The notes: generated by a model not told the origin, from the sequence alone. A stretch of 63,998 nucleotides of DNA, filler included, from Porpidia crustulata (GCA_964255105.1; 20 parts of 20 records of this genome joined end to end with filler, not necessarily neighbours in it), one strand, 5' to 3'. Numbered from the whole stretch's first letter, positions 1-24,236 are shown. Program-made: numbers and translations.

Positions 1-524
1 AGCAGGTGGTGGCTGCAGTACCAAAAGCAGTGTTTTTGGGGCTTCCCCGCCATTTATTATTTTTTTTTTGGATTTTCATTTTCGGACCCACCATTTTGCA
101 CATGACGATACTTGAGATAGTTTTATCTACTAGACTACGGCAGTTGCTACAATCGGGTAAATTACTAATTCAACATTCAATAATTACGTTCATCAATTGT
201 AGTATGTAAAAATTGATTTCTTGAGTTATTACTCAATCTGTCTGAGTAAGTACAGTGAGAAGGAGATTACAGAAATGTCTCAAAAACAAATATTTTATTA
301 GAGCTCTCCTTCTGGTAAGCAATCTAGCAACTCCTGAATGCTGGGGGGAAAAAGAATCAAAAACTTCAAAAGTGTTGAAAATAGAGCATCTAGGTCCTAC
401 GACTAGGTGTTCGGGGTGCTTGCGCTAGTAAGATCACCTGACCTCCAATATATAGACACGTAGCTAGACCGACTCAATCCACAACCCTTTTCACCCTAAG
501 TCAGCCCATCATATATACTTCAAC

Positions 525-529
525 AAAAA
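525..529 (-). terminator. RNA polymerase III oligo-T terminator of the tRNA gene
   Basis: TTTTT on the minus strand, separated from the tRNA 3' end by 7 nt. Confidence 0.75.
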
Positions 530-580
530 GTTTACATGATGAGGGCGAGACTCGAACTCGCGCGGGTTTCCCCACTAGGA

Positions 581-597
581 ATTATTGTTAAGAAAAG
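581..597 (-). other. Canonical tRNA (endonuclease-type) intron at position 37/38
   Basis: CTTTTCTTAACAATAAT one base 3' of anticodon AAG; its CTTAAC pairs with GTTAAG of the anticodon loop. Confidence 0.9.
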
Positions 598-616
598 CCT
601 TAACCTAGCGCCATAA

Positions 617-676
617 CTGCATAGTTATGTTAGATTGAAATATAGCTTGCAATACTGGGGTGCCCCTGGGACTGAC
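617..676 (-). other. Spliceosomal-type (GT-AG) intron inside the tRNA-Leu D-loop
   Basis: GTCAGT donor, CTAAC branch site 12 nt before the intron end, terminal CAG, 60 nt long; removal restores the D-arm exactly. Confidence 0.85.
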
Positions 677-1423
677 CCAACTCGGCCACCTCACCTGACA
701 TCAATATCCATGTCGTATTATCAATTATTTTGTTATAACTGAGCTAGCCCCGCCACCTCGCCCGCATATCTGACGAGGGCCAGACTAGCCGGATGCAGCA
801 CGCTTTACTCAATGCAGTGATCTACCCTTCGGATGCCTTCATGGATAAAATTTGCAATGTATAGTTCAGAGTTCTATTCTACAGAAAGACCTCGAGTTGG
901 ATTGCTCTAGCTAACAGAAGGGGATTTGAGTCGGATATTGCTATGTTGTAATCCAGCTGTAGATATCACGGAATTCATTCATCTGCTCTAATGAGCGTTC
1001 GTCATGGCAGGCCTTATGCTCATTGAAACTTGGATCACTCTTCTACTGGAATTTCAGATCGAAGAGTAGTGTGGTGTATGGCGCATAATCTCTGCGGTAT
1101 GTTGCAGCTCCTCGGAATAATAGATTGATCATCTACTTCTATGACCAAGGGCTTTAGCTACTAGAAAGCTCGACCGCGAGGTAAGTCGTAGTCTTTCCTC
1201 GGAATTCGACTCTGTACATTCATCAGCCGCGGTGGACGGCGGTGCTTTCCTCGAGGGTCTTGCATTCCATCCATGCGTGAAGGCGCTTGATGGGTGTATT
1301 TAAGACTGCGTTGCAACATCTGGGCTGCTTTTCTCCTACATCATGCTCCCTATTTCCAAATTACCTCTACGAAATACTTATTTCTTTTCAATGCTATTTT
1401 GACCACGACATTATTGAGCGGCT

Positions 1424-1798
1424 TTGTCAAGAACTCTTGGTATCATTTATATACATCGGGCGTGCCTTGAGATCCCTGCAGACAGTGAGACCGCGGTGGC
1501 CTCACTACCGGCTGCAGCACGAGCGTCTACCGATCCTAATGATCCTGTATATGATTTTCTCCCGGAACATGTTTCACTTTCACGACCTGGAATCCATGCT
1601 TATGAGTGCAAAGCCTACAAGGTAGATGTAACTCCTGAGACTCTTCCAAGTACCGGCTCTAATAAGATCTTTAGGGATCCGGATTCCGATATGGGACCTC
1701 AGAAGTGGGATCTCTTTGCCAATGCTGATGAAAACTATCAGTTTCGAAATCCACTAGCATCAGATTCGTCGAACTATATCAGAACTACACGCATGTGA
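1424..1798 (+). CDS. Hypothetical protein or gene fragment
   Basis: Protein-like ORF with no recognised domain; the start is uncertain. Confidence 0.2.
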   Translation: MSRTLGIIYIHRACLEIPADSETAVASLPAAARASTDPNDPVYDFLPEHVSLSRPGIHAYECKAYKVDVTPETLPSTGSNKIFRDPDSDMGPQKWDLFANADENYQFRNPLASDSSNYIRTTRM

Positions 1799-2500
1799 TG
1801 AAGACGTTGTTCAAAGTGGAGTAAACATTGAGCGTTGATGGTAGTTGCCGGCCGAAAGTTGCGGATACTTCCTTCTTCCCTTATATTTGATGCCCTAAAT
1901 TCTTTGGGCTTTGGTATTTCACTTTTCTTGACCACAAAACCTAAAATAGTAGTGGGCGCACGTACCAAGTCAAAGACAGTGGTAGCGATCTATCCCTTCT
2001 GGATACCACACCTCACGCGTTCCACGATGGTCCAAGATCTGCAAGTATATAGAACTTGAGTGAGAGCTGAGGAATGATGCCCTTGTCTTTTATTTTGTAT
2101 CTACGGATATCAATCTCACTGGCTCCGTGAAACGCGGTTTCCTGGATTTTCGACCCGATTTCGAATTACCTCCAGTAACCTGCTCATCCGTAGGTATTGC
2201 GTGATTGCTCACAAGCTTACGCGGCTCAGCTCAGGAAACATAGCTTGAGCTCCTTTCCCTATCGATAAAAGGTGCGTCCTGCCCATCGTTCCTTCTCACA
2301 ATTATCTTTTCTCCCATTCTCAACAGTACCTGCTATACAATCTTCAATCATCTTACCATAGCAACATCCCCATACTCGCACTTCGGTAATCACTACATCC
2401 GTTCATCTCAATCTCAAGATTTCTTCATCGCCCGCCCTTGAACACTGTCTCCCCTTCTTTTCATCTACATCCCGAGACTGCACAACGCCGTTCAAGCATC

Positions 2501-3169
2501 ATGTCTGTATTCCATCTGTTCATGATGCGGATCATCCTGCTGCTTGTAACGTTTGCCAGTCTTGCTCATTCGGTACCGATCACACAAAAGCGCTGCATTA
2601 TATTCTGCCATGATTCCGGTCCTCATATCACATACGGATTCAGACCAGACGCGCTACGTGAACTGATGGTCCCCTATACACCAGACGGACTTCTAGTCCA
2701 ATTCAATCTCATGGCACAATACGCGGCTGCGTCATATTGCCAAGAGAACAATGTAGCCAGCGGTTCCAAGATCACCTGCCACGCGGGAAATTGCAAAGAT
2801 GTGGAAAAGTCCGATGCGGTTTCGCATTATCCCTTTCAGAACGGACCTGGTGATATCACCGGCTTCCTTGCTGTCGACCATACCCACCAACTCGTTGTCG
2901 TATCCTTCCGAGGTGCCATATCCGATGCAAACTGGGCCTCAGCCCTTAATATCATCAGGGTCTCTTCCGATCTATGCAAACACTGCAATGTCCACAAAGG
3001 TTTTTGGGAGACCTGGACAGAGGCACGATCAATGGTCCTTGATGCTGTTAAAGAGTCCATGACGCAGTTCCCAGAGTATCGAATCGCTGTTACTGGCCAC
3101 TCTCTTGGCGCTGCAATGGCCACATTCGCTGCTGCGGATATCCGTAAAATGGGCGACTATTTCCTTAAC
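2501..3169 (+). CDS. Secreted lipase, class 3 family (3'-truncated by contig end)
   Basis: Signal peptide, AQYAAASYC, VVSFRG lid region, VHKGF and the catalytic TGHSLG nucleophile elbow. Confidence 0.9.
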
Positions 3170-3269
3170 NNNNNNNNNNNNNNNNNNNNNNNNNNNNNNN
3201 NNNNNNNNNNNNNTTAATTAATTAANNNNNNNNNNNNNNNNNNNNNNNNNNNNNNNNNNNNNNNNNNNN
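3170..3269. other. Artificial contig-joining spacer (N...TTAATTAATTAA...N); same spacer at 6439, 9700, 12956, 16208, 19456, 22689, 25920, 29151, 32380, 35596, 38806, 42014, 45217, 48412, 51601, 54783, 57944, 61102
   Basis: Identical 100-nt block with a six-frame stop linker; flanking contig lengths fall monotonically. Confidence 0.98.
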
Positions 3270-5860
3270 GGGTGGTGGTATAGGTGGCGAAGAGGGAGAT
3301 TACCCAGGTGAGTTTGCTGTGGATCTGTGTGGGTGGAGGGTTAGATTTTTTGGTGGGGAGTGGAGGAGGAGTTTGGGCGGAAGGGAAAGGGGAGACTAAC
3401 GCGGAGGAGTTTGGAGTTCATGAGCATGCACTCTTTCAGACATGTATCTAGGAAATCCACATGGTCTTCCATTAATTCGTCCACGGTCCGCTCTACCTTT
3501 TGCGTCGAGCCGTCCCTCCCAGTCGTGCTGTCCCCGTTGACGCGAGCCATGAGGTTATGCCAATTCGGCTCGATGACTTCCGAGGTGCAGTAGTATGTGA
3601 ATTGCTGGACGAACACCAGCATCCGCGATCGCAACGTCCAGGCCCTGCGTTTCCAGCGCTCGAGCTTCGGATCGCCGCTGCGGTGCGTCCAGCTGAGGAC
3701 TTTGTGGTGGTCTTCCCAGCTGCTGACCAGGAGGCCTTCGAGGTGGCGCATGGAGACAAGGTAGCGGAATAGGATCTGGTATCTCAGCACGGTTTTGCTG
3801 CTGATGACGAGGGAGAGGGGGAAGGGAACGGAGAATTTGAACTCGAGGGCTTCGTAGCCGGTCATGCTGCTGCTGTCGTGGTCGTCGATGGATGATGGCG
3901 GTTGGGTGGCTGGGGCGCGGTAGCGGTCGAGGCTTTCATCCGGGGCGTCCTGGTCGATTCCTCGGACATTGACGACGCCCATGAGGAATTTCGTGAGGCC
4001 GACGTCGTTCATCTGCACTTTGACGTCTTCTTTGAAAGGATCGAGGGCGGCGACGCTGCCGGGTTGGCGGAGGACGAGATCGAGGAGGGATTGGAGTTTG
4101 CCGACGTTGACTGCGCGGAAGGGCTTTCTGAGCTCCGAGGCGCTGAGATCGAGGAAGTAGGTGAAGAAGTCGGAGCGGTCGAGGAAGAAGTAGTGTTTCA
4201 TTGAGCGGAGTCGATCTGATAAGGCGTGTGTGGTAAGTAGGAGCTTGAGAAGGGACGAGTTGGCGTGAGCATAAGCAGCGTTGACATTGTCGAGGAATTG
4301 GGGATCGTCAAAGGATTTGGGAACATCTTTGACCTCCATGCCGACGTCTACTCCACCGCATTCTCGTACCACATTGAGATATTTCCCTGCAAGTAGCACT
4401 TTATCCTTGACTCCTTCCAGTTGTGGCGGCACGTCATTGTCTCGAATTGTATATCTCTTTTCCCAATACTCGTCGGTGTAGTCTTCCTCTAGCTTCTCCC
4501 GCTTAATGCTCTGCTGTTCTTTGATCAGAAATTCGCCATGGGGGTCTTTGATACCGCCATGATGCAGCCATTCATTCAGCATGGCCATGTACGGCCGGCT
4601 AGCATCTCGTAATAAAGTCTGAAGCAAAGTCCTTGCTGCGGGATCTCCAGACATGAAAGAAAGGCGTTCTGTCAATAAACGTAGGACATTTCCTCCTTTA
4701 TAGACTTTGGTCACCATACCCCCGGGTGCTAGATCGCCACCATCCCGGAGCTGCTCAAGAATATTGTCGACATCGTCAAAATCTGCCGAGTCGTCTAGAT
4801 CCTCTTCCAGTAAAGAATTCTTCCGCAGGATTTCCTGGCCAAGTGTATAGATTTGGAACATCATTCGACTTGTTGGTAGCGTATGTAAGTGCAACAAATG
4901 CAACGTGAACGAAGGGTTGCTGATTACTTGATTTTCTAATTGTGCAATGAGCACAAGATAGTCCTTCAGCAATTTACGAATCGAGGCGCACAATGCATGG
5001 TTGATAGCACCAAATGCTTCTCTACTCTGCATCTCCACAAATGCCTCGACTGCGCTATAATACGTGGCTATCTTTAATATCGAGTTGGTGAGATCTCGTA
5101 GACTAGGATCTAAGCCTGGTAATATGCGATAGCTTGGTCCTGCGAGACGCTCCTTTTCCTCGGTAGGTTTATATGATTCTTCGAATTGAATATACTGTCC
5201 TTCATATCCCATTAGTACGAACAAGACATCATCAAGTATGGCATCTTCTTGTTCAGTGGATGTTAGTTCTTTTAGCGGTTTGGGCTCAAGCGATTGAGGT
5301 AGTGAAGATGAGCGAGGGGGTTTTGAAACTCGAGTGGCGAGAGGTGCTGTTGTAGCTTCTGTAAGGGTCGCTGCTGGCTTCCATGGCGCTGAGAGGCGAG
5401 CGACTTAGTATAGCCTTCTGTAGATACTACTTTCTGAGAACCGCAACCTACGTGGTGGTTCCTTTCCCTTTTTCTTAGGTAGTGGCACGGCTTGCAATGT
5501 TGGACTTCCATGTCCTGGTGACTTCCTAGCCTCTGAATTCCATATTCCCTCGTTATCGCTATTAAGAACTTTTGCGGGACTCCGCACCTGAAGTCGGAAA
5601 CTCTCTTTTGTTGTAACAATAACCCTCTCCTTCTGCTTTTCGGTTGTAGTTCGCGTTGAGCCATGAGCCTTTTCCTGACCAGAAGGTTTCCTTCGATGAG
5701 GCGCATTGCTGGCGGAATCGTCTGGATGAATCTCGTCATAGGAGTCAGGTCGCCCTTTAGCTCCAACACGAGACGAGGGAACTCGGGGTTTCGCGCTTGC
5801 TGTTGCGGAGGTTCGTCTATCATTATTCGGCGCACTCCGAGAGTTGACGGTGGTGGACAT
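3270..5860 (-). CDS. SPC97: Gamma-tubulin complex component GCP2 (Spc97/Alp4), 3'-truncated
   Basis: DVLFVLMGYEGQYI, YTDEYWEKRY, LAGKYLNVVREC, SMKHYFFLDRSDF, CTSEVIEPNW; GT-AG introns 5389-5451 and 3325-3400. Confidence 0.92.
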
Positions 5861-23299: not shown

Positions 23300-24236
23300 T
23301 TACCACTTCTCTCCGGCTGGTCTCATATCAATCTCCCACGTAAACGAAGTCTTCGGTTGCGTATGCAAATGCCAATATGCGTCGGCAATCTATTCATATC
23401 CAATAGTCAGCAACATGATCGAATGTCGTCCCGACTTACGAGTAAGGGCAACTGACAGCCTCAGCGCTAATCTTAGCATCAGGCCCCAGATCCCAAGCCT
23501 TCGTTCGTGGGATATCAATCACACCATCAAGGATGGCATGTGAAACATGTACACCCTTGGGCCCGAATTCCCGCGCAAGGCTCTGGCTGATCGCTCTCAG
23601 AGCGAATTTCCCGGCAGCGAAGCCAGCAAAGTTGGCTGAGCCTTTGATGGACGCGGTGGCGCCGGTGAAAATGAGGGTCGGGGGATGCTTGGGACTTTTC
23701 TCATTGGCTTTGAGGAGGAGAGGAAGCATGGCTTGCGAGAAGAAGAAGGCTCCTGCCCTGGATCGGGATTATATTTGAGCATTGCTTCTAAGTATCTGAG
23801 GCGAAACGGCAGAAGGGAGGCATGAATTCAATAACTACCACGCAGGAGGCAATGCAGCTGATCCGCAAGAATACAAGTATAAAAGAACAGGAACTCACCC
23901 AGAAGCAGCATAGCCACCCATGAATTCCTCCTCGCTCATCTCAAGGAACGGTTTCTTAACAAAGCCCCCCGCCGCGTTGAGCACCGCCGCAGCGCATCCC
24001 CCATCCCCAAACTCACTCTCGATCTTCTTCACTGCCTCTTTCAGGCTGCTAGCATTTGTAACATCGGTGCTAACGCCAATTGCTTTGCCGCCGGATGAGT
24101 TGATCTCTTCCACCAGAGGCTCGAAGTTGGCCGGAGTTCGAGAAAGGCACACGACGGGATATGTGGCAGCGAATTTGCGAGCGACCGAGGCGCCTGTACC
24201 GGGGCCTACGCCTGCAATCACGGCGTATGGAGACAT
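23300..24236 (-). CDS. Short-chain dehydrogenase/reductase, 3 exons
   Basis: AVIAGVGPGTG Rossmann motif, FTGATAS, KFALRA...SLAREFGPKGVHV; last exon IADAYWHLHTQP...EKW*. Confidence 0.9.

What the first reader, a model, noticed from the sequence alone, without database searches (positions are those of the whole stretch)
537..695. tRNA-Leu(AAG) gene interrupted in its D-loop by a spliceosomal (mRNA-type) intron
Seen in sequence: on the minus strand the tRNA begins GGTGAGGTGGCCGAGTTGG. It is followed by 60 nt, GTCAGTCCCAGGGGCACCCCAGTATTGCAAGCTATATTTCAATCTAACATAACTATGCAG, and then TTATGGCGCTAGG. The insert has a GTCAGT donor, a CTAAC branch point close to the end, a CAG acceptor and a typical fungal intron length. 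The same GTCAGT donor opens protein-gene introns in this window (SDR 23456, Brl1 37343, PP5 62309). Removing it precisely at GT...AG rebuilds a flawless D-arm. Established knowledge: nuclear tRNA introns are normally cut by the tRNA splicing endonuclease, mostly at 37/38. Spliceosomal introns are known in fungal U6 snRNA (a Pol III transcript) and in rRNA genes of lichen-forming ascomycetes. I know of no described spliceosomal intron in a tRNA. Inference: this pre-tRNA would need the spliceosome to mature, perhaps after intron gain by reverse splicing. Standard tRNA finders would probably miss such genes.
Basis: partly seen in the sequence, partly recalled or inferred. Interest (0 to 1): 0.95.

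Follow-up and report, generated by a model that had tools for sequence, protein, structure and literature searches.

The report
Spliceosome-type intron inside a tRNA gene
A leucine tRNA gene of a lichen-type fungus is split in its D-loop by a 60-base insert carrying every signal of an ordinary mRNA intron, and other fungi carry similar inserts elsewhere in the same tRNA, so these tRNAs probably need the mRNA-splicing machinery to mature.

Summary
On the minus strand, 695..537 is a tRNA-Leu(AAG) gene. Removing 676..617 (60 nt: GTCAGT...CTAAC...CAG) leaves a clean class-II cloverleaf that still holds a normal 17-nt intron at 37/38.

The reading was tested out of sample. One metagenome scan for the exon-2 word returned 12 tRNA-Leu(AAG) loci, 9 of them distinct. 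Five carry 7 further inserts at three other positions (D 15/16, T 52/53, T 58/59). Each is 48-52 nt, GT-AG (one GC-AG), with CTAAC or ACTAAAC 9-11 nt before the 3' end.

Exons stay identical while the inserts diverge. One organism has the insert in 3 of 3 copies at unrelated loci. One syntenic Pleosporales locus shows three different intron states.

No bulge-helix-bulge fits any insert (0 of 26 register combinations). Rfam and default ARAGORN miss the window's gene.

Ten literature searches found no description. A U6 review lists snRNA and rRNA genes only.

No RNA data could be obtained, so splicing is inferred, and the window's own copy could still be a dead gene.

Verdict: very probably real spliceosomal introns in tRNA genes, apparently undescribed.

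The parts
537..695 (-). Whole tRNA-Leu(AAG) gene: three exons, one D-loop insert and one canonical intron
   Evidence: My intron-agnostic T-arm/acceptor scan returns this as the only hit in the window.
677..695 (-). Exon 1, tRNA positions 1-19: acceptor 5' strand, U8, D-stem 5' strand and D-loop up to G18 G19. It holds the complete A-box-like TGGCCGAGTTGG (688..677).
   Evidence: The A-box consensus is recalled, not taken from a tool.
617..676 (-). 60-nt spliceosomal-type intron between G19 and U20. GTCAGT is at 676..671, CTAAC at 633..629 (branch A at 630) and CAG at 619..617. The longest T run is 3.
   Evidence: No other copy occurs in the window.
598..616 (-). Exon 2: rest of the D-loop, D-stem 3' strand, G26, anticodon stem 5' strand and the loop with anticodon AAG (601..599) and G37
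581..597 (-). Canonical 17-nt tRNA intron at 37/38 (CTTTTCTTAACAATAAT). Its CTTAAC is complementary to the anticodon region.
   Evidence: ARAGORN reports i(39,17). Homologous introns sit at the same place in all 12 metagenome loci.
537..580 (-). Exon 3: anticodon stem 3' strand, long variable arm, T-arm GCGAG-TTCGAGT-CTCGC (561..545, B-box-like), acceptor 3' strand and discriminator A
525..529 (-). T5 run starting 8 nt after the discriminator; a plausible RNA polymerase III terminator
   Evidence: The terminator rule is established knowledge, recalled.

Best explanation
The 60-nt insert is a U2-type (GT-AG) spliceosomal intron in a nuclear tRNA-Leu(AAG) gene of a Lecanoromycetes-like (lichen-forming) ascomycete.

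Proposed mechanism, inferred rather than shown:
1. The precursor is made either by RNA polymerase III from the intact A and B boxes, or as part of a polymerase II transcript.
2. The spliceosome recognises it through GUCAGU, the branch A of CUAAC and the CAG acceptor, and joins G19 to U20.
3. Only then can the D-loop/T-loop elbow form.
4. The ordinary tRNA splicing endonuclease and ligase can then remove the 17-nt intron at 37/38, and end processing can follow.

The gene is one instance of a wider habit in Pezizomycotina. tRNA-Leu(AAG) genes of Pleosporales-like fungi carry the same kind of intron at 15/16, 52/53 and 58/59.
For: Shown by sequence and tools:
1. Precise removal in a GT-AG register restores a complete class-II cloverleaf. 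It has G18 G19, A21, a G13-U22 D-stem, anticodon AAG, a T-arm and the G2-U71 pair that the Pleosporales homologues share.
2. The full intron signature occurs in 1 of 121,696 60-mers of the window.
3. Out-of-sample test: one scan returned 12 loci, 9 distinct.
   - Five distinct loci carry 7 inserts of 48-52 nt at three other positions.
   - The 5' ends are GTCAGT, GCAAGT, GTGAGT, GTAAGC and GTAAGA (three times).
   - All have TCTAAC, ACTAAC or ACTAAAC 9-11 nt from the end.
   - The 3' ends are CAG (five), TAG (one) and AAG (one).
   - After removal, ARAGORN calls tRNA-Leu(aag) in 12 of 13 genes. The miss, L003, is cut by its contig end.
4. Selection pattern.
   - L009 and L011 have identical exons, but their inserts are 62% and 78% identical and their flanks are about 52-55% identical in global alignment.
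   - The three TARA copies have unalignable flanks and differ at 3-5 of 151 gene positions. By my reading of the sequences printed, all those positions lie inside the insert.
5. In the TARA sample 3 of 3 detected copies carry the insert.
6. L006/L007 (no insert), L008 (52/53) and L009 (15/16 and 58/59) are one syntenic locus beside the same FAS1-domain gene.
7. The T stem and variable arm of the window's gene differ from the Pleosporales genes by paired, compensatory changes. The T stem is GCGAG/CTCGC against GTGGG/CCCAC (sequences).
8. No bulge-helix-bulge fits: 0 of 26 insert/register combinations have a 4-bp central helix.
9. A TATA-like AT-rich stretch lies upstream and a T5 run downstream.

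Precedent from papers (passages read):
- U6, a polymerase III transcript, and U1, U2 and U5 snRNAs and rRNA genes carry spliceosomal introns (PMC5855946).
- A 57-bp lichen rDNA spliceosomal intron is removed from polymerase I transcripts in yeast (PMC8527467).
Against: - There is no RNA evidence of any kind for the window's gene or for the environmental genes.
- The window's own intron has no orthologue or paralogue to compare. All 12 scan hits belong to another sequence type of tRNA-Leu(AAG).
- No genome is held, so other uninterrupted Leu-AAG copies may do the work while this copy is dead.
- The gene abuts AT-rich DNA that looks repeated.
- The 5' exon is only 19 nt plus leader.
- That polymerase III transcripts are generally poor splicing substrates in animal cells is recalled knowledge, not a tool result.
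- L009's T-loop insert ends in AAG rather than YAG.
- The scan pattern was specific to Leu-AAG, so nothing is known about other tRNAs.
Confidence: 0.72

Rival explanations
1. This particular copy is a dead gene. A spliceosomal intron, or intron-like DNA, landed in one of several tRNA-Leu(AAG) genes recently. The exons have not yet decayed, and the cell relies on uninterrupted copies.
For: - There is no orthologue, paralogue or RNA data for the window's copy.
- It is the only tRNA gene in 64 kb.
- It sits next to an AT-rich stretch (GC 0.34-0.36 in 1..450) that appears repeated.
Against: - All signals and all structural positions are intact.
- The A box, B box and T5 run are intact.
- The same kind of insert is kept in all 3 detected copies of one organism, and at homologous positions in L009 and L011 with identical exons. 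Intron-bearing tRNA-Leu genes are therefore viable as a class.
Confidence: 0.2
2. The intron is spliceosomal, but the substrate is a polymerase II transcript (a host-gene intron or read-through RNA) from which the tRNA is later cut out, not a polymerase III pre-tRNA. This is a variant of the best explanation, so its probability is not additive with the others.
For: In the syntenic Pleosporales locus the tRNA gene lies in sense orientation inside an intron of a FAS1-domain protein gene.
- In L009 the host intron runs from GTAAGT at about 847 to GCTGAC...CAG at about 287, 561 nt on the minus strand. The tRNA is at 688..490.
- In L008 the preceding exon ends at 408, the last exon starts near 901, and the tRNA is at 582..732.
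- L006/L007 show the same arrangement.
Against: - The uninterrupted L006/L007 gene is nested in the same way, so nesting alone does not go with the inserts.
- No coding flank was found for L001, L011, L012 or for the window's gene. Pfam gave 0 families for 8 of 8 flanking frames at E<=0.1, and there are only short frames on the minus strand of 1..2400.
- All genes keep T runs downstream, and B-box-like sequence survives at the split sites.
Confidence: 0.25
3. The insert is a non-canonical tRNA intron removed by the tRNA splicing endonuclease through a bulge-helix-bulge, as in archaea, Cyanidioschyzon merolae and nucleomorphs.
For: Ectopic tRNA introns in D and T regions exist in those lineages (recalled; review PMC3978253 seen only as a search listing and abstract).
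Against: - For the 8 inserts and every register that gives the same product (26 combinations), none has a 4-bp central helix flanked by 3-nt bulges. The best is 3 of 4 pairs, never in both members of a homologous pair.
- The minimum-free-energy folds do not place the junctions in bulges.
- A bulge-helix-bulge model does not predict the conserved GT/GC, CTAAC and AG.
- The helix geometry used in the test is recalled, not from a tool.
Confidence: 0.03
4. The insert is an assembly or scaffolding artefact.
For: Laid contigs do not cover 517..631, so the 3' junction was not seen in read-derived contigs.
Against: - A 2,518-nt contig of run X1 matches 632..850 exactly and bridges the exon-1/insert junction, though it is possibly from the same sample.
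- An artefact would not carry a full set of splice signals in register with a tRNA.
- Similar inserts occur in independent assemblies.
Confidence: 0.02

Closest known systems
mRNA-type (spliceosomal) introns in fungal U6 snRNA genes (Schizosaccharomyces pombe and many other fungi), and in U1, U2 and U5 genes of Rhodotorula
   Same: - A short GT-AG intron with branch site sits inside a small, highly structured, non-coding RNA gene; U6 is transcribed by polymerase III.
- Introns occur at different positions in different lineages, conserved only in their splice signals, with up to four in one gene (PMC5855946, passages read).
- As in Schizosaccharomyces U6, B-box-like sequence sits at or in the intron. 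For U6 this rests on the title of Frendewey et al. 1990 in that paper's reference list. Here the 58/59 inserts keep GTTCGAGT inside them.
   Different: - The host RNA is a tRNA, not part of the spliceosome, so proximity to the catalytic centre cannot explain intron gain.
- The gene also has a second intron of the protein-enzyme type.
- Splicing has been shown experimentally for U6 but not here.
Spliceosomal introns in nuclear rRNA genes of lichen-forming ascomycetes (Bhattacharya et al. 2000, cited in PMC8527467 and PMC5855946)
   Same: - The fungal group appears the same. The window's GCP2 protein is 82% identical to Lepraria neglecta and 81% to Stereocaulon virgatum and Letharia columbiana.
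- The size is the same: a 57-bp Cladonia grayi rDNA intron.
- The idea of an 'ectopic' spliceosomal intron in a gene not read by polymerase II is the same. Its removal from polymerase I transcripts by yeast spliceosomes was shown (PMC8527467, passages read).
   Different: The host is a polymerase III-type gene of 82 nt, not rRNA. The exons are only 19-44 nt.
Canonical nuclear tRNA introns at 37/38, removed by the Sen endonuclease and tRNA ligase
   Same: The gene has one: 17 nt at 597..581, pairing with the anticodon. All homologues have one too.
   Different: The 60-nt insert is at 19/20, has GT-AG and CTAAC signals that canonical tRNA introns lack, and breaks the elbow that the endonuclease is thought to measure from (recalled).
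Bulge-helix-bulge introns at non-canonical tRNA positions (archaea, Cyanidioschyzon merolae, nucleomorphs)
   Same: tRNA genes are interrupted in D or T regions, sometimes by several introns.
   Different: No bulge-helix-bulge can be formed here (0 of 26). Those introns have no GT/branch/AG signals (recalled).
Introner-like elements of fungi and algae (short multiplying introns; mentioned in PMC11146597, passages read)
   Same: Short fungal introns that appear to be recent gains. Dothideomycetes are a lineage where they were reported (recalled).
   Different: No second copy of the insert occurs in the 64-kb window or in the 12 loci. The genome-wide copy number could not be tested.

Membership tests
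U2-type spliceosomal intron | 5' splice site GT (rarely GC) with the GTRNGT-like extended consensus | tested here: met
   The window has GTCAGT. The 7 environmental inserts have GTCAGT, GCAAGT, GTGAGT, GTAAGC and GTAAGA (three times). GTCAGT also opens candidate protein-gene introns in the window.
U2-type spliceosomal intron | Branch-site motif CTRAY a short distance upstream of the 3' splice site | tested here: met
   The window has TCTAAC with 13 nt after the branch A. Six of the 7 other inserts have TCTAAC or ACTAAC with 9-11 nt after it. L001 and L008 have ACTAAAC at the same place, which the CTRAY regex did not count.
U2-type spliceosomal intron | 3' splice site YAG | tested here: met
   The window has CAG. 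Among the others there are CAG (five), TAG (one) and AAG (one, L009 T-loop).
U2-type spliceosomal intron | Length typical of the host genome's introns | tested here: met
   60 nt. Candidate introns in the window at 23456, 37343 and 62309 are 52-66 nt, but they were not validated by transcripts.
U2-type spliceosomal intron | Homologues conserve the splice signals while the body diverges | tested here: inconclusive
   Met for L009 against L011 and for the three TARA copies. No homologue of the window's own intron was found.
U2-type spliceosomal intron | Excision as a lariat by the spliceosome | not testable with these tools
   No RNA run was available.
Canonical eukaryotic tRNA intron (Sen endonuclease) | Position 37/38 in the anticodon loop | tested here: not met
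   The 60-nt insert lies between positions 19 and 20. The gene's other, 17-nt intron does meet this feature.
Bulge-helix-bulge tRNA intron | Two 3-nt bulges holding the cut sites, separated by a 4-bp helix | tested here: not met
   0 of 26 insert/register combinations. The window's two registers give 1 of 4 pairs each. The geometry is recalled.
Functional nuclear tRNA gene | Complete cloverleaf with conserved positions, A and B boxes, and a T-run terminator | tested here: met
   ARAGORN calls it after insert removal. The A-box-like sequence is at 688..677, the T-arm at 561..545 and T5 at 529..525.
Functional nuclear tRNA gene | Expression and aminoacylation | not testable with these tools
   No RNA data were available.
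Introner-like element / transposon insertion | Multiple near-identical copies; target-site duplication or terminal repeats | tested here: not met
   There is no other copy in the window or the loci. Only a single shared G lies at the two borders. A genome-wide count was not possible.

The most novel reading that the evidence does not exclude
Spliceosome-dependent tRNA genes form a class in Pezizomycotina, in at least a Lecanoromycetes-like and several Pleosporales-like fungi. U2-type introns have entered the elbow region of tRNA-Leu(AAG) at four or more positions. In at least one organism every detected copy of this tRNA carries one, so decoding of CUU/CUC leucine codons would depend on the spliceosome. 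Because these genes escape tRNA finders, the class may extend to other tRNAs and fungi.
Probability: 0.6. Interest if true: 0.92.

Novelty: new variant of a known kind. Interest (0 to 1): 0.9.

Why it matters
- Textbooks separate two nuclear splicing systems: the spliceosome for mRNA (plus a few snRNA and rRNA oddities) and a protein-only endonuclease/ligase pathway for tRNA. A tRNA that needs both, in sequence, would join them.
- It would also show the spliceosome working on an 82-nt RNA with exons of 15-44 nt.
- It would give a natural system for studying how introns are gained in structured RNAs: four positions, one syntenic locus with three states, and one insert holding a relic of the tRNA's own 3' end.
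- It bears on whether polymerase III transcripts, or host-intron RNAs, reach the spliceosome.
- Practically, Rfam and ARAGORN miss or barely detect these genes. Fungal genome annotations may therefore report an essential leucine tRNA as missing.

Tried and rejected
- No whole genome is held for the window, so neither a census of tRNA halves nor a search for an uninterrupted copy was possible.
- Sequencing runs: no RNA holder was listed.
- Laying contigs of X1, X2, X4 and X5 at 80% likeness gave no joints. Nothing covered 517..631, so neither the 3' junction nor uninterrupted paralogues could be seen. The small shares of X2, X4 and X5 came from the stretch 400..516, not from the tRNA.
- The genome search on the records behind L001, L008, L009, L011 and L012 failed because those records are not held. 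Other tRNA genes of those contigs could not be examined.
- The same 19-nt pattern gave 0 hits in genome contigs and 0 in viral contigs.
- Earlier findings of this scan: five look-ups, nothing relevant.
- My first intron-harvesting heuristic (GTNNGT..YAG joining open frames) gave 97 mostly ambiguous candidates. It was not used for a consensus.
- tblastn of GCP2 homologues read through the gene as one gapped hit and did not delimit introns.
- Origin by internal duplication (300 shuffles each):
  - The window's insert shows no similarity to its own gene (z -0.5) or to the L002 gene (z 0.9).
  - Only L009's 58/59 insert resembles a tRNA 3' end (z 4.8, reached by 1 of 300 shuffles).
  - The 52/53 and 58/59 inserts are not detectably related (z -0.6 and -0.1). 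I therefore dropped the idea that they are one slid intron.
- Host genes for L001, L011, L012 and the window: Pfam found 0 families in 8 of 8 flanking frames.
- Absence of T runs of 4 or more in all 8 inserts was considered as evidence for polymerase III transcription. I set it aside because short sequences of this composition often lack them by chance (my estimate, not computed).
- Paper PMC4829304 (Canzler et al. 2016) is not held.

Full report
**1. What is in the window**

On the minus strand, 695..537 is a tRNA-Leu(AAG) gene in five pieces.
- Exon 1, 695..677, is GGTGAGGTGGCCGAGTTGG (tRNA positions 1-19).
- A 60-nt insert occupies 676..617.
- Exon 2, 616..598, runs to G37 and holds anticodon AAG at 601..599.
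- A 17-nt intron at the canonical 37/38 site occupies 597..581.
- Exon 3, 580..537, holds the long variable arm, the T-arm and the acceptor 3' strand.
- A T5 run (529..525) follows 8 nt after the discriminator.

The insert begins GTCAGT, has CTAAC at 633..629 with 13 nt after the branch A, and ends CAG.

When a script removes the insert, ARAGORN with the intron option calls an 82-nt tRNA-Leu(aag) with a 17-nt intron. On the raw DNA it can only force a false tRNA-Arg(cct) with an 85-nt 'intron'.

Standard finders miss the gene.
- The ARAGORN tool without the intron option finds nothing.
- Rfam at gathering finds nothing in 64 kb.
- Rfam finds no tRNA match even at E<=10 around the gene.

My own intron-agnostic scan looks for a T-arm plus a matching acceptor stem up to 450 nt apart. 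It returns exactly one hit in the window, which is this gene.

The excision register is ambiguous by one base. One of the two registers is GT-AG.

**2. Is it more than chance?**

Among 121,696 N-free 60-mers of the window, 446 are GT..AG. Of these, 22 also have a CTRAY branch motif 6-25 nt from the end. Only 1 has the full GTNNGT..CTRAY..YAG signature. Shuffled windows give frequencies of 0 to 2.4e-5.

The borders are fixed by the tRNA fold, not chosen to fit. The match is therefore very unlikely for random inserted DNA.

Each is followed by CTGAC...YAG at 52-66 nt. They are plausible introns but I did not validate them with transcripts.

A contig assembled from public reads (run X1) matches 632..850 exactly and bridges the exon-1/insert junction. 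It may come from the same sample as the assembly.

**3. The out-of-sample test**

No genome is held for this window.

It returned 12 loci. Three pairs are the same sequence from different samples (L002/L004, L005/L010, L006/L007), which leaves 9 distinct loci. All are tRNA-Leu(AAG) genes with a 16-17-nt canonical intron.

Five distinct loci carry seven additional inserts.
- L009 and L011 each have one insert after G15 in the D-loop. L009's is 50 nt: GCAAGT...TCTAAC...CAG. L011's is 48 nt: GTCAGT...TACTAAC...CAG.
- L009 and L011 each have a second insert after A58 in the T-loop. L009's is 51 nt: GTGAGT...AACTAAC...AAG. L011's is 50 nt: GTAAGC...AACTAAC...TAG.
- L001, L008 and L012 each have a 52-nt insert after G52 in the T-stem: GTAAGA...TACTAAAC or TACTAAC...CAG.

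After removal in the GT/GC-AG register, ARAGORN calls tRNA-Leu(aag) in 12 of 13 genes. The miss is L003, which is cut by its contig end.

Counting the window, that makes 8 inserts in 6 genes at 4 positions. Each has a register with GT-AG (one GC-AG with an otherwise perfect GCAAGT), a yeast-like branch motif 9-13 nt from the end, and a length of 48-60 nt.

Rfam finds the uninterrupted genes at 46.8 bits. It finds the 52/53 genes at 29.5-29.7 bits against a threshold of 29. It does not find L009 and L011 at all.

**4. Signs of function**

- L009 and L011 have identical exons. Their D-loop inserts are 62% identical, their T-loop inserts 78%, and their flanks 52-55% in global alignment.
- The three TARA copies lie in unrelated flanks. 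They are 146-148 of 151 identical across the gene. By my reading of the sequences, the differences all lie inside the insert.
- In that sample 3 of 3 detected copies have the insert. The organism with uninterrupted genes also shows three loci.
- L006/L007 (no insert), L008 (52/53) and L009 (15/16 plus 58/59) are one syntenic locus. They share a FAS1-domain gene, and blastn gives 74-80% identity over 424-789 nt.
- The window's gene differs from these genes in the T stem and variable arm by paired compensatory changes (sequences), so it has evolved as a tRNA.

**5. Other removal routes**

I tested every insert in every register that yields the same product, 26 combinations in all. The test asked for a 4-bp central helix between two 3-nt bulges that hold the cut sites (geometry recalled). 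None qualifies. The best cases have 3 of 4 pairs and are not shared by homologous inserts. The predicted folds do not present the junctions in bulges.

At 48-60 nt the inserts are far too short for self-splicing introns.

The insert has no second copy in the window or in the loci. It has no flanking duplication beyond a single G.

**6. Who are the hosts?**

The window's GCP2 protein is 82% identical to Lepraria neglecta and 81% to Stereocaulon virgatum and Letharia columbiana. The rest of the named list consists of lichen-forming fungi as well. I therefore place the window in a Lecanoromycetes-like ascomycete.

The FAS1-domain protein beside L009 is 95% identical to Paraphoma chrysanthemicola, 90% to Neocucurbitaria cava and 88% to Plenodomus lingam. 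The syntenic environmental loci are therefore Pleosporales-like.

Two classes of Pezizomycotina are thus involved.

**7. How it probably works**

This part is inferred.

The introns sit in the D-loop and T-arm, the two parts that form the tRNA elbow. They must be removed before the tRNA body can fold, and hence before the usual endonuclease can act on the 37/38 intron.

The promoter elements largely survive.
- In the window the whole A-box-like sequence precedes the intron and the T-arm is untouched.
- At 52/53 the intron's last G plus the exon recreate GGTTCGAGTCC.
- At 58/59 the intron's GT mimics G59 U60 (read; box consensus recalled).

Polymerase III transcription followed by spliceosomal splicing, as for fission-yeast U6, is therefore possible.

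A second route emerged from the data. At the syntenic Pleosporales locus the tRNA gene lies, in sense, inside an intron of the FAS1-domain gene.
- In L009 the host intron is 561 nt, from about 847 to about 287 on the minus strand.
- L008 and L006/L007 are equivalent.

A polymerase II pre-mRNA could therefore carry the tRNA to the spliceosome.

This cannot be general on present evidence. The nested L006/L007 gene has no extra intron. No host gene was found for L001, L011, L012 or the window.

**8. What is known**

Ten full-text searches found no paper describing a spliceosomal intron in a tRNA gene. Subscription journals are largely outside that library.

A 2018 U6 review (passages read) lists spliceosomal introns in U6, U2, U5 and U1 snRNA genes and in rRNA genes. 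It states that the determinants of insertion into non-coding RNAs are unclear.

These are the nearest precedents. The tRNA case would add a new host RNA, and one that already has its own, different splicing system.

**9. Limits**

- No RNA evidence could be obtained.
- The window's own intron has no comparator.
- An uninterrupted copy in the same genome cannot be excluded.
- The scan pattern saw only Leu-AAG genes with an intact stretch from position 20 to 37.

I put 0.72 on the window's insert being a working spliceosomal intron and 0.2 on this copy being dead. I put about 0.9 on the class as a whole consisting of spliceosomal introns by nature.

Noticed in passing
L008:409-900 (+); L009:287-847 (-); L006/L007: about 371-792 (-): At the syntenic Pleosporales locus the tRNA-Leu(AAG) gene lies in sense orientation inside an intron of about 420-560 nt of a FAS1-domain protein gene. 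The host uses GTAAGT and, in L009, GCTGAC...CAG. The last exon, encoding IQPGNVEV..., lies downstream of the tRNA.
   Followed up: partly
window 400-516: Read-derived contigs over this stretch have word depths of about 430-3300 in run X1, against 10.5 for the contig over 632-850. Contigs of three other organisms' runs match it at 90-99%. All stop at 516, about 20 nt downstream of the tRNA's 3' end, and continue differently. It looks like the end of a repeated element next to the tRNA gene. Depth is not a copy number. No second copy occurs in the window.
   Followed up: partly
L001-L012, the 40-45 nt after the tRNA 3' end (e.g. L009, L011:730-782): All complete Pleosporales-type genes share a conserved 3' trailer. 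It has a hairpin (GTCTGCTTCNAGCAGAC or a variant), then CCTAGGA-like sequence, then a T run. It is conserved even between paralogues whose other flanks are unalignable. The window's gene lacks it.
   Followed up: no
L011:869-929: A solitary copy of the tRNA's last 18 nt (CGAGTCCCACTCTCATCA), with a trailer hairpin and a T run, lies 140 nt downstream of the complete gene. It is a remnant of a partial tandem duplication.
   Followed up: partly
L009 T-loop insert (within L009:490-688, minus strand): The 58/59 insert contains GTTCGAGTACGACTAAGATCA. This resembles the 3' end of the L002-type tRNA (GTTCGAGTCCCACTCTGATCA; z 4.8, reached by 1 of 300 shuffles). L011 keeps the first 14 of these bases. 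This hints that the intron arose from a duplicated tRNA 3' end.
   Followed up: partly
L009 D-loop insert: This is a GC-AG intron (GAG|GCAAGT), where its homologue in L011 has GT (GAG|GTCAGT). GC donors with an otherwise perfect consensus are a known minority class of spliceosomal introns (recalled).
   Followed up: no
window 632: The X1 contig that covers the 5' part of the gene starts at 632, inside the insert. No laid contig covers 517-631. It is unresolved.
   Followed up: no
window 745-760 (minus strand): About 50 nt upstream of the tRNA lies GGGGCTAGCTCAGTT, which looks like the first 15 nt (acceptor plus A box) of another tRNA. Nothing tRNA-like follows it. It may be chance or a gene fragment.
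   Followed up: no
window 3170-3269 and then about every 3.2 kb: Paired 44-base runs of N recur at regular spacing through the window. These are masked stretches, not biology.
   Followed up: no
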